From the IMG/VR virus record IMGVR_UViG_3300031998_000009, positions 134,525 to 198,524 of that record: 64,000 bases of DNA; one strand, written 5' to 3'. Below the pieces are notes generated by a model that made no database searches, was not told where the DNA came from, and saw only the letters and a program-made list of their open reading frames with translations. The stretch is from a virus. Taxonomy: Duplodnaviria > Caudoviricetes. Positions 32,260 to 34,081 of this stretch are shown piece after piece. The translations under genes were made by a program, and so were the position numbers. Each line of letters starts with the position of its first letter. Position 1 is the stretch's first letter.

Positions 32260-32295
32260 GGGTACCGGGTTAGTGAATAATACCAACCCGGTACC
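32260..32295 (-). terminator. Hairpin after the capsid gene
   Basis: GGTACCGGGTT/AACCCGGTACC inverted repeat. Confidence 0.6.
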
Positions 32296-32316
32296 TGTTA
32301 AATTAAAGGGTTATAC

Positions 32317-32459
32317 TCAACCTGTAATTCTACCACGGAGGTACATCTTACCGTTGATCATCTTGCAGCCATAAGAGGTTGCATAACCTTGCTGTCCACG
32401 GAAGTCAGCAGGCATGAGGACGTCCGTGCTGAGAATAGGCATGTACGGAGCGTATACAA
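32317..32459 (-). CDS. Major capsid protein, exon 2
   Basis: After splicing reads (F)VYAPYMPILSTDVLMPADFRGQQGYATSYGCKMINGKMYLRGRITG*, matching the gp23 C-terminal YAPY...TRYG region. Confidence 0.93.
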
Positions 32460-32868
32460 CATTTACGTTTATACAGTTTGTAATAACTGTATATTACTCA
32501 CATCACTGTGAGGATCAGACTATATCATGAATTTAATAACTCTGTTACCAAGTTATTAAAAACCCTGGCACTTCCATTTAATAGACTTATGTAAAATTAA
32601 TATCATTTTACTGCTAACCTTAATAGGCTGTACTCTACTTGCTTCGTGTTACATCTTATGTAACCTTATTTTCAAACCACCTAATTATGTATTATTTATG
32701 TATTTCTACAAATGTGGTTGTTTAGCTTTCGATAGTCGTTGAACCTTCGTTAAATATTAAATTTAACGCTTGGCTGCTGATTGACTTATTTCTTTAATTA
32801 AGCTTTCCAGCAGTTCACCAGGTTTATACTGGACTTGTATTACGCTGCAACAGCATAATCATCTGTTA
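32460..32868 (-). mobile_element. Group I intron (409 nt, IA-like, no homing endonuclease ORF)
   Basis: P1: exon ACTGGAT pairs with IGS GTCCAGT, giving U.G at the 5' splice site. P10: ATACAA pairs with exon-2 TTGTAT. P GAACTGCTGGAAA, Q AATCAGCAGCC, R GTTCAACGACTA, S GATATAGTCTG; terminal G at 32460. Splicing restores a 1356-nt (451-aa) frame. Confidence 0.95.
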
Positions 32869-34081
32869 ATCCAGTTTCCAGGAAGTTAGTTCCCTTGTAA
32901 CCCATAACAAAGACATTAGGATCAATAGCAGGAACGATGTAGCACTTGTATCTACCACCAAGTGTACCAATGAAGTGAGGACCAACAGCATCACTAGAAC
33001 CGGTAGCATCAAAGTTTCTCATAACCTCAATAACAGCAGCAACATTAGAACCGCAAACAATGAAGTTTGGCTGAACTCTCTGTGTTGCGTTGAAGATCTG
33101 TTTTGCACCCTGAGTAAGAGTGATCCAGAAGCTGTCATAGTGATCAAGAGCATTAACACCAACTGGTGGAACCTTATTCCATGTAATCTCTGTACCGGCA
33201 GCAGCACCAGTAACGAGTTTACTCACAATTTCCGTATCAATTTCATGGGCAATCTCACCAGCTGCCTGTGCAGACATAACTTCAAGGATCTCAGCACCAT
33301 ACTGCTGTTTAAGATCGTATGCTGCGTCGAATCCCCAATATGCAGCGAGCTTTCTGGACTTTGCAAAGATTGGAATCTGTGCAAGGCTGAGATTGATTTC
33401 AGGAACCTTAAGATCCGGAACCTGCTCATTGTTGTACTCATAAGTAGCAGTGGAACCAGTAACAGCAGTGACACAAGTAAATGCACCAGTTGCATAGTTA
33501 ATAGTACCAACAGTAGCATTACCATTTGCAGGATTGATAATGTTTCCAGCACCGTCATCAGTATAAGTAGTTCCATCAGGAAGAACGACTGTTACGGTTT
33601 TTGGAAGAATTGGAACATACTCAAAGTTAATACCAGTCTCAACAGCCTCACCATCAATGACTCTTGCACTGTAATACGGATCAGAATGACCAGTATAAAG
33701 AGAGTTGTTAAACATAGTACCAGCAGTGGTCTGACCCTTATCAGAACCGTAAGAGAATCTTAAATAGGAAATCATACCTGCTTTAGACTCAAGAGCCTGA
33801 GTAGAAACAATATCAGGAGCAATAAGATTTGGAACAACAGCAGTCAGCATATCCATGAAGAAAGTCTTACTTGGAATGTTAGCACTGTTTGTAGCCTCAC
33901 AAATCATCTTGGTATTGTTAAGAGTAGTTGCAAGCGCAACTTTCTTTTCAAGAGTAAGTGTTTTACCCTGTGCCTTCTGAACAGCCTCAGCGGCACGAAT
34001 GTACTTTTCGTACATTTTAATTTTCGGAGTAGCTTTAGTAGCCATTTTGTTGATGGCATTTTCAACCATAAGATTGCTCAT
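32869..34081 (-). CDS. Major capsid protein (T4 gp23-like), exon 1
   Basis: PNLIA.DIV..Q, AKSRKL, E....EIDTEI, MGYKG motifs; probable delta-domain cleavage at ICE62|A. Confidence 0.95.

What the first reader, a model, noticed from the sequence alone, without database searches (positions are those of the whole stretch)
32840..32868. Intron-encoded ssrA-like degradation tag on the unspliced capsid protein
Seen: the intron's P1 loop continues exon 1 in frame as L-T-D-D-Y-A-V-A-A-stop, placed between the 5' splice site and the IGS. Established: tmRNA tags end in an acidic/Asn stretch plus YALAA-type residues (E. coli ANDENYALAA), and the terminal Ala-Ala is read by ClpXP. Inference: ribosomes translating unspliced pre-mRNA make a truncated, potentially assembly-poisoning capsid protein that the intron itself tags for proteolysis, while the stop clears ribosomes from the ribozyme core. 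This would be a built-in quality-control device; I know of no description of it. Caveat: the codons also form a hairpin (ATTATGCTG-TTG-CAGCGTAAT), which could favour Ala codons by itself.
Basis: partly seen in the sequence, partly recalled or inferred. Interest (0 to 1): 0.92.

Follow-up and report, generated by a model that had tools for sequence, protein, structure and literature searches.

The report
Intron-encoded Ala-Ala tail on unspliced capsid protein
A self-splicing intron in a phage capsid gene makes ribosomes that read unspliced RNA end the shortened capsid protein in a short tail finishing Ala-Ala, the signal bacteria use to destroy unfinished proteins; related introns in other phage structural genes do the same, pointing to an undescribed clean-up device.

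Summary
A 409-nt group I intron (32868-32460, minus strand) splits a gp23-like major capsid gene. Exon 1 reads in frame into the P1 loop as L-T-D-D-Y-A-V-A-A-stop, ahead of the internal guide sequence.

Eleven distinct same-site intron sequences (window plus ten contigs; seven distinct tails) keep the frame, the 8-9 codon length and a terminal Ala. The last residues are VAA, LAA, MAA, KVA or CCA. In close relatives only wobble positions change. The acidic/Tyr part is not conserved.

A P1-extension hairpin containing the last Ala codon and the stop is also conserved, so this locus alone cannot separate RNA from peptide constraint.

Across 65 insertion-site classes of this intron family, 16 read-in products end AA or VA, against 0.94 expected. 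The trait is scattered over the ribozyme tree. It is concentrated in capsid, sheath and tape-measure genes (11/17) rather than other genes (2/29).

Two RT-PCR-proven mycobacteriophage introns, in LittleE capsid and BAKA tail genes, end ...ATAAA and ...LAAAAA.

I found no paper describing this. An unchecked note of this scan reports LAA-ending read-ins in two polA introns of another genome.

The best reading is a selected ClpXP-type C-terminal degron. It is untested, and the host is unknown.

The parts
32869..34081 (-). Exon 1 of the gp23-like major capsid protein gene (404 codons plus the first base of codon 405)
   Evidence: Pfam Gp23 1.4e-45 and PHROG major head protein 8.5e-43. Colinear with intronless homologues L003, L004, L007 and L011.
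32460..32868 (-). Group I intron, 409 nt, with no endonuclease ORF
   Evidence: Rfam RF00028 at 53.4 bits. U.G at the 5' splice site, G32460 as the last base, and P10 pairing. Removing it restores ETGFVYAPY as in intronless relatives.
32840..32868 (-). Read-in tail: with exon base T32869 it encodes L-T-D-D-Y-A-V-A-A, followed by stop TAA (32842-32840)
   Evidence: Direct reading. Frame, length and terminal Ala are conserved in all same-site introns.
32869..32875 (-). P1 5' strand (last seven exon bases, ACUGGAU)
   Evidence: Pairs with 32834-32828. Predicted in all eight folded variants.
32839..32859 (-). P1-extension hairpin (9-bp stem, UUG loop). Its 3' strand holds the last two Ala codons and the stop.
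   Evidence: The lower stem UUAYG/CRUAA is kept in most variants. The apical pair is U-A in the window, A.A in L006 and C.U in L008, so it shows no covariation.
32835..32840 (-). P10 guide AUACAA, which overlaps the last base of the stop codon
   Evidence: Complementary to the first six bases of exon 2, UUGUAU at 32459-32454.
32828..32834 (-). Internal guide sequence GUCCAGU (P1 3' strand), 8 nt downstream of the stop codon's first base
   Evidence: A terminating ribosome would cover it (inference).
32317..32459 (-). Exon 2 (the last 47 residues of the capsid protein, plus the stop)
   Evidence: tblastn colinearity and alignment with intronless homologues.

Best explanation
The capsid gene carries a group I intron whose P1 loop is an 8-9 codon open extension of exon 1. 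Any ribosome that reaches the 5' splice site before splicing reads through this extension. It terminates at a UAA 8 nt upstream of the guide sequence and releases a capsid protein that lacks its last 47 residues and ends ...Y-A-V-A-A-COOH. I propose that this C-terminus is a selected ssrA-like (ClpX C-motif-1 type) degron. It would send the truncated, potentially assembly-poisoning subunit to the host AAA+ proteases, while the stop keeps ribosomes out of the ribozyme core. Shown: the anatomy, the reading frame, its conservation, and the family-wide excess of AA/VA endings and its link to structural genes. Inferred: that unspliced RNA is translated, that the tail is recognised by ClpXP or a similar protease, and that the untagged fragment would be harmful.
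For: (1) Same-site introns in 10 further contigs give seven distinct tails: LTDDYAVAA, LTDYAVAA, LTEEVTLAA, LTKEVAMAA, LTRDYVMAA, LTECYAKVA and LTNKVTCCA. All are in frame, 8-9 codons long, and end in Ala followed by TAA. The middle of the tail is almost free to vary. (2) Among close relatives the three variable columns are all third codon positions and synonymous, and the only indel is one codon. Just after the stop, the spacer varies by 1-2 nt. Two of these wobble changes break a hairpin pair. (3) Family survey: of 65 insertion-site classes, 16 end AA or VA. Expectation is 0.94 from exon dipeptide use, and none of 200,000 simulations reached 16. The other two frames give 0 of 150, and ordinary long ORFs in the same contigs give 2.4%. 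(4) The excess is specific to Ala and Val, not to Gly, Pro or Arg, so GC-rich stems alone do not explain it. Codons and stop codons differ between classes. (5) The trait needs 14 changes for 16 tips on the ribozyme-core tree, the same as shuffled labels (14.5). The window's nearest core sits in a DNA polymerase gene and has no such tail. (6) AA/VA tails occur in 11 of 17 capsid, sheath and tape-measure classes against 2 of 29 non-structural classes, Fisher p = 5e-5. (7) The RT-PCR-proven introns of mycobacteriophages LittleE (capsid) and BAKA (tail) read in as WNSVATAAA-stop and LSDDLAAAAA-stop (PMC3706429). (8) The terminal Ala-Ala-COO- is the main ClpXP determinant, and a degron needs about 5 free residues (PMC7652416). 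This tail has nine.
Against: The final Ala codon and the stop lie in the 3' strand of a conserved hairpin, UUAYG/CRUAA. In LittleE and BAKA the Ala run is the 5' strand of a GC stem capped by a GUAA loop. RNA structure could therefore fix GCN codons without any role for the peptide. In some classes the VA or A is encoded by the guide sequence itself (second capsid intron, ThyX, L030) or by the exon (psbA, L289), so not all 16 classes are independent or intron-designed. The three T4 introns, Tuc2009 head-gene intron and six capsid classes have immediate stops or other endings. One same-site variant ends CCA. The host, its tmRNA tag, expression of unspliced RNA and degradation are all unknown. 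A badly truncated capsid protein might misfold and be degraded anyway.
Confidence: 0.55

Rival explanations
1. By-product of RNA structure. The only selected features are an in-frame stop placed next to the guide sequence and a stable P1-extension hairpin. GCN-GCN happens to be good stem material, and the peptide has no function.
For: The hairpin is predicted in all eight variants folded, and its lower stem includes the last Ala codon and UAA. U/C opposite G/A gives three pairing combinations out of four. The LittleE and BAKA Ala runs are stem strands. The in-frame stop near the 5' splice site is a known general feature (PMC3073962).
Against: This does not predict the Ala/Val-specific excess over Gly, Pro and Arg. 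It does not predict the absence of the motif in the other two frames, the free wobble positions that break pairs, the different registers of hairpin and tail in L010, or the 11/17 versus 2/29 split between structural and other genes carrying the same ribozyme family.
Confidence: 0.28
2. The tail tunes translation termination or ribosome residence. The last codons and the nascent peptide would set how fast the ribosome leaves the P1/guide region, timing P1 formation (ribosome-as-chaperone effect) rather than marking the protein for decay.
For: The stop sits 8 nt before the guide sequence and overlaps the P10 guide, so a terminating ribosome must block P1 and P10 (inference). Translation up to the 5' splice site is reported to aid splicing of bacterial group I introns (PMC3073962).
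Against: No known termination-context rule favours Ala-Ala (my own knowledge). The stop-to-core distance varies from -5 to -77 nt among AA/VA classes. The link to structural genes is not predicted.
Confidence: 0.1
3. The truncated, tailed capsid protein is itself a functional minor isoform, for example a regulatory or assembly-limiting subunit.
For: No direct evidence. The 413-aa product is conserved in length.
Against: It lacks 47 conserved C-terminal residues that intronless relatives always have. Close relatives live without the intron (L003, L004, L007, L011).
Confidence: 0.05

Closest known systems
In-frame stop codons just inside phage and bacterial group I introns (T4 td, nrdB and a third T4 intron at about 45.6 kb; review PMC3073962)
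   Same: There is a stop in the exon frame before the ribozyme core. The intron starts U|UAAC like the T4 intron at about 45.6 kb, which reads E-L-T-stop.
   Different: T4 introns add 0-2 residues. Here a 21-nt hairpin is inserted in frame, so 9 residues ending Ala-Ala are added, and that ending is conserved.
tmRNA (ssrA) tags, ClpX C-motif-1 degrons and RqcH alanine tails (PMC7652416)
   Same: C-terminal hydrophobic-Ala-Ala-COOH on an incomplete protein. YAVAA compares with E. coli YALAA.
   Different: The tail is encoded in DNA by the intron and added by ordinary translation ending at a stop codon, not by trans-translation. The upstream SspB-type part is not conserved. Recognition by a protease is untested.
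Mycobacteriophage cluster J capsid and tail introns (LittleE, BAKA; Pope et al. 2013, PMC3706429)
   Same: These are spliced group I introns in virion genes. I find that their read-in tails end ATAAA and LAAAAA.
   Different: They have high-GC hosts and a different ribozyme subgroup. The paper does not mention the tails or stop codons ('stop codon' occurs 0 times in its text).
Eukaryotic mitigation of read-through and non-coding translation by C-terminal tails (recalled from my own knowledge, not checked here)
   Same: A peptide encoded by normally untranslated sequence destabilises the aberrant product.
   Different: That system uses proteasome/BAG6-type recognition of hydrophobic tails, not a bacterial Ala-Ala degron, and no ribozyme is involved.

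Membership tests
Group I self-splicing intron (Rfam RF00028) | Conserved core P3-P9 scoring above the family threshold | tested here: met
   53.4 bits against a gathering score of 50, over the full model 1-253.
Group I self-splicing intron (Rfam RF00028) | P1 with a U.G pair at the 5' splice site, G as the last intron base, and P10 with the 3' exon | tested here: met
   ACUGGAU pairs with GUCCAGU, G32460 is the last base, and AUACAA pairs with UUGUAU.
Group I self-splicing intron (Rfam RF00028) | Removal restores a colinear, conserved protein | tested here: met
   Four intronless homologues align through the junction ETG|FVYAPY.
Group I self-splicing intron (Rfam RF00028) | Splicing observed in RNA | not testable with these tools
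ssrA-like (ClpX C-motif-1) C-terminal degron | C-terminal Ala-Ala-COOH preceded by a non-polar residue | tested here: met
   The window ends ...Y-A-V-A-A-stop. Five of the seven same-site tails end [VLM]AA, one ends KVA and one ends CCA.
ssrA-like (ClpX C-motif-1) C-terminal degron | The tail is long enough and exposed enough to reach the ClpX pore (about 5 residues beyond the fold, PMC7652416) | tested here: inconclusive
   There are nine residues beyond the exon, and the exon is cut mid-domain. No structure was computed.
ssrA-like (ClpX C-motif-1) C-terminal degron | ClpXP-dependent (or ClpAP/FtsH/Lon-dependent) instability conferred by the tail | not testable with these tools
   This needs a reporter assay in clpX+ and clpX- hosts.
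tmRNA tag proper | Added co-translationally by tmRNA on a stalled ribosome | tested here: not met
   The tail is encoded in the intron DNA and ends at an ordinary TAA. No tmRNA gene is present in the 198.5-kb phage record. It is a mimic at most, not a member.
tmRNA tag proper | Matches the host's own tag sequence | not testable with these tools
   The host is unknown. The capsid protein has no relative in 185,579 species genomes.

The most novel reading that the evidence does not exclude
Group I introns that live in phage virion genes have repeatedly evolved short in-frame tails ending Ala-Ala or Val-Ala. In at least one case (L233, ...VANDNGIVALAA) the tail looks like a near-complete tmRNA-tag look-alike. 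Truncated structural subunits made from unspliced mRNA would thus be handed to the host's ssrA/ClpXP disposal route. This would be a general, intron-encoded protein quality-control device that lowers the cost of carrying an intron in a highly expressed assembly protein.
Probability: 0.5. Interest if true: 0.88.

Novelty: new variant of a known kind. Interest (0 to 1): 0.8.

Why it matters
If true, this adds a third layer to how self-splicing introns make themselves tolerable. Splicing and an in-frame stop are known. The new layer is a built-in degron that removes the protein made before splicing.

It would explain how introns can persist in the most abundantly expressed, assembly-sensitive phage genes. 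It would also show phage elements exploiting the host ssrA/ClpXP recognition code.

On the practical side, it gives annotators a signature for intron-split structural genes: an ORF ending ...AA or ...VA just before a ribozyme core. It also supplies natural, diverse degron sequences for hosts that are hard to study. The idea can be tested directly with simple reporter fusions.

Tried and rejected
- **Host identification.** The capsid protein found no relative in genome contigs. The phage record has no tmRNA and the window has no tRNA. The comparison with the host tag was therefore not possible.
- **Phage database.** DNA search found only short matches to the ribozyme core and no close relatives.
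- **Universal-rule idea rejected.** T4 td, nrdB and the third T4 intron add 0-2 residues...FLG...SFA...ELT. Other endings are Tuc2009 head gene ...PAWS, S-PM2 psbA ...CAL and LUZ24 ...PLD, and the Twort and K introns.
- **Conserved acidic/Tyr ssrA-like body rejected.** K, N and R occur at those positions.
- **Single inherited lineage trait rejected.** The label is as scattered as shuffled labels on the core tree, although the tree is poorly resolved.
- **GC content as driver rejected.** Exon GC is 0.46 in AA/VA classes and 0.42 in the others.
- **Splice-site prediction.** My automatic P1 finder was unreliable for several classes. Exon-coded versus intron-coded tails were judged from profile-alignment ends instead.
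- **Classes removed.** Ten survey classes were natural ORF ends (endonucleases, integrase, scaffold, dehydratase, an HTH regulator) and were removed. Three HNH-endonuclease ends found later remain in the 65 but carry no AA/VA ending.
- **Chance hits.** L014, L018, L137, L141 and L146 matched my patterns by chance or outside an ORF.

Full report
**What is there**

The window belongs to a 198.5-kb uncultured virus record. On the minus strand, a gp23-like major capsid gene follows a prohead protease/scaffold gene (Pfam Gp23 1.4e-45). The capsid gene is interrupted by a group I intron. Rfam RF00028 matches 32878-32496 at 53.4 bits, and it is the only family over threshold in the window.

From the sequence:
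- P1 pairs ACUGGAU (32875-32869) with GUCCAGU (32834-32828), with U.G at the splice site.
- The intron runs 32868-32460 (409 nt) and has no endonuclease ORF.
- G32460 is the last intron base.
- AUACAA (32840-32835) pairs with the first bases of exon 2 (P10).

Joining the exons gives a 451-residue protein with the junction ETG|FVYAPY. Four intronless homologues (L003, L004, L007, L011) read NFLETGFVYAPY or NFLETGYIYAPY colinearly, which confirms the splice sites.

**The observation**

Exon 1 ends after the first base of a codon. The unspliced frame continues T|TA ACA GAT GAT TAT GCT GTT GCA GCG TAA, which reads L-T-D-D-Y-A-V-A-A-stop. This lies exactly at 32868-32840, between the 5' splice site and the guide sequence.

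The tail lies in a P1 extension. P1 (7-8 bp) is followed by an internal loop and then a hairpin, AUUAUGCUG-UUG-CAGCGUAAU. The whole element folds at -18.2 kcal/mol, z = -4.4. The stop is 8 nt upstream of the guide sequence. A terminating ribosome would therefore cover both the P10 guide and the P1 guide (inference).

**Same-site relatives**

I used two searches. One was a capsid-protein search of viral contigs. The other was a metagenome scan with a pattern that fixes only P1 and the first core bases and leaves the loop length free, CTGGATTAAC-N10-40-GTCCAGNNTAAAC. Together with the window they give eleven distinct same-site intron sequences (ten of them on other contigs) and seven different tails:

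| Tail | Loci |
|---|---|
| LTDDYAVAA | window, L006, L135, L142 |
| LTDYAVAA | L008, L009 |
| LTRDYVMAA | L149 |
| LTECYAKVA | L144 |
| LTEEVTLAA | L005 |
| LTKEVAMAA | L010 |
| LTNKVTCCA | L140 |

- All are in frame, 8-9 codons long, and end in Ala (GCG or GCA) followed by TAA.
- The penultimate residue is A in five tails, V in one and C in one.
- The residue before that is V, V, L, M, M, K or C.
- The middle of the tail is nearly saturated with change.
- Among close relatives, the three variable columns are all third codon positions and synonymous, and the only indel is one codon.
- The spacer just after the stop varies by 1-2 nt.
- The pair at hairpin positions 8 and 14 is U-A in the window, A.A in L006 and C.U in L008. 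These positions behave as wobble positions, not as a covarying pair.

However, the acidic/Asn-Tyr resemblance to a whole ssrA tag is not conserved. Only the extreme C-terminus is.

**The confound**

All eight variants folded keep P1 plus an apical hairpin. In most of them the lower stem is UUAYG/CRUAA, so the last Ala codon and the stop are paired. At this locus alone, RNA constraint and peptide constraint cannot be cleanly separated.

**Family-wide test**

I scanned viral contigs for the conserved P3-J3/4-P4 motif of this ribozyme family. For each instance I took the long ORF that runs into the intron. The ORFs were grouped into insertion-site classes by their upstream sequence.

There were 75 classes. 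Ten proved to be natural gene ends (endonucleases, integrase, scaffold and others) and were dropped, leaving 65.

- 16 of the 65 end in AA or VA.
- The expectation from the dipeptide use of each class's own exon is 0.94. None of 200,000 simulations exceeded 8.
- The other two frames of the same DNA give 0 of 150 (Fisher p = 7e-9).
- Long ORFs elsewhere in the same contigs give 2.4%.
- At the last two positions Ala (18 and 14) and Val (13) are enriched. Gly, Pro and Arg are not, so GC-rich stems alone do not explain the excess.
- In the first 37 classes, the nine-base motif G[TC]N-GCN-stop occurred eight times, always in the exon frame.
- Codons and stop codons differ between classes, for example CTG GCG GCT TGA, CTC GCG GCG TAA, TTA GCG GCT TAG and GTT GCC TAA.
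- On a tree of ribozyme cores the trait needs 14 changes for 16 tips, the same as shuffled labels (14.5). The window's nearest core sits in a DNA polymerase gene and has no such tail. The tree is weakly resolved.

**Which genes**

Pfam and PHROG assignments give this split:

| Gene class | AA/VA tail | Total |
|---|---|---|
| Structural | 11 | 17 |
| Non-structural | 2 | 29 |

Fisher p = 5e-5.

- The structural classes are capsid genes of five Pfam families (Gp23 with two introns, crAss capsid, Phage_capsid_3, Phage_capsid_4, SU10), plus tail sheath and tape measure.
- The non-structural classes are DNA and RNA polymerases, RNR, Pol III, psbA, ThyX, SSB, dUTPase, Sak4, an AAA ATPase and terminase.

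This association is what the idea of disposing of assembly poisons predicts. An RNA-only explanation does not predict it.

**Caveats on the survey**

- In some classes the V-A is the guide sequence itself. This applies to the second capsid intron (K-Q-L-V-A-stop, with GUGGC as the guide), the two ThyX sites and L030.
- In others it is exon-encoded with an immediate stop (psbA, L289, probably L207). Bacillus phage SP-15, a cultured phage outside the survey classes, also has an exon-coded AA in its capsid gene.
- Splice sites were not verified for every class.

**Independent, experimentally spliced cases**

Pope et al. (PMC3706429) proved by RT-PCR and N-terminal sequencing that the LittleE capsid gene and the BAKA minor tail gene contain spliced introns. 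Using their coordinates, the read-in products are ...NNGTGG-WNSVATAAA-stop and ...VGG-LSDDLAAAAA-stop. There, the Ala run is the 5' strand of a GC stem whose GUAA loop supplies the stop. The paper does not discuss this.

**Counter-examples**

- T4 td, nrdB and the third T4 intron stop after 0-2 residues.
- Tuc2009 head gene, S-PM2 psbA and LUZ24 have other endings.
- Six capsid classes lack the tail, and several of them stop immediately after an exon CAU.

The tail is therefore common, not universal.

**What is known**

- An in-frame stop just inside group I introns that keeps ribosomes out of the core is textbook (PMC3073962).
- The terminal Ala-Ala-COO- is the dominant ClpXP determinant. Related AA-ending degrons and alanine tails also target proteins to ClpXP (PMC7652416).
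- Three full-text searches found no paper linking intron read-in peptides to degradation.
- An unchecked first-reader note of this scan on another genome reports LAA-ending read-ins in two polA introns. I did not test it.

**Verdict**

[quoted passage not shown] The main rival (about 0.28) is a by-product of a stop-bearing hairpin. The components are known and the combination appears new.

Three things are still missing: proof of degradation, proof that unspliced RNA is translated, and the identity of the host and its tmRNA tag.

Noticed in passing
L006:3841-4876, L008:3829-4845, L009:3832-4844, L010:3856-4903: Close relatives of this capsid gene (L006 is 99% identical over residues 1-280) carry a second group I intron of about 1 kb after residue 280 (GEIAH|EIDTE). 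It contains a GIY-YIG-like endonuclease ORF. The window's gene lacks it. Its read-in is K-Q-L-V-A-stop or K-E-L-V-A-stop, and the V-A codons are the guide sequence GUGGC.
   Followed up: partly
L006:5813-6117, L008:5753-6078, L009:5775-6082: A third Rfam-positive group I ribozyme (52-64 bits) starts about 10 nt after the capsid gene's stop codon in these relatives. It is followed by a roughly 230-aa ORF with CxxC motifs. This may be an intron in the 3' UTR, at the stop codon, or a free-standing ribozyme-endonuclease unit. It is absent from the window.
   Followed up: no
L007:4320-4442: An intronless relative has a second copy of the last 41 capsid codons (80% identical) about 1.3 kb downstream of its intact capsid gene. 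It may be a relic of intron loss or of homing-associated duplication.
   Followed up: no
L233:1950-1997 (also L217, L227): A major-head-protein intron in a GC-rich viral contig has a read-in of about 16 codons ending ...V-A-N-D-N-G-I-V-A-L-A-A-stop. From memory, this looks like a whole proteobacterial tmRNA tag (ANDxxxxALAA), not only its last residues.
   Followed up: partly
survey classes L213, L195, L208, L253, L189 (viral contigs): Several capsid-gene introns of the same family end the exon ORF in ...[LM]-H-stop, with CAT or CAC directly followed by the stop. This suggests a sub-lineage that targets ...CAU| sites and stops immediately, with no tail.
   Followed up: no
L012:2781-2850: A RAGATH-18 RNA motif (58.6 bits) lies about 150 nt upstream of the capsid gene in one related contig.
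   Followed up: no
window 32262-32300 (minus strand): A perfect 11-bp GC-containing hairpin (GGTACCGGGTT...AACCCGGTACC) lies directly after the capsid stop codon. It is a likely terminator or RNA-stability element between the capsid gene and the next 108-codon ORF.
   Followed up: no
T4 NC_000866 about 45.6 kb (L155): The T4 intron there begins U|UAACGUAAGU. The window's intron looks like the same P1 loop with a 21-nt in-frame hairpin inserted between UAAC(A) and CGUAA.
   Followed up: partly
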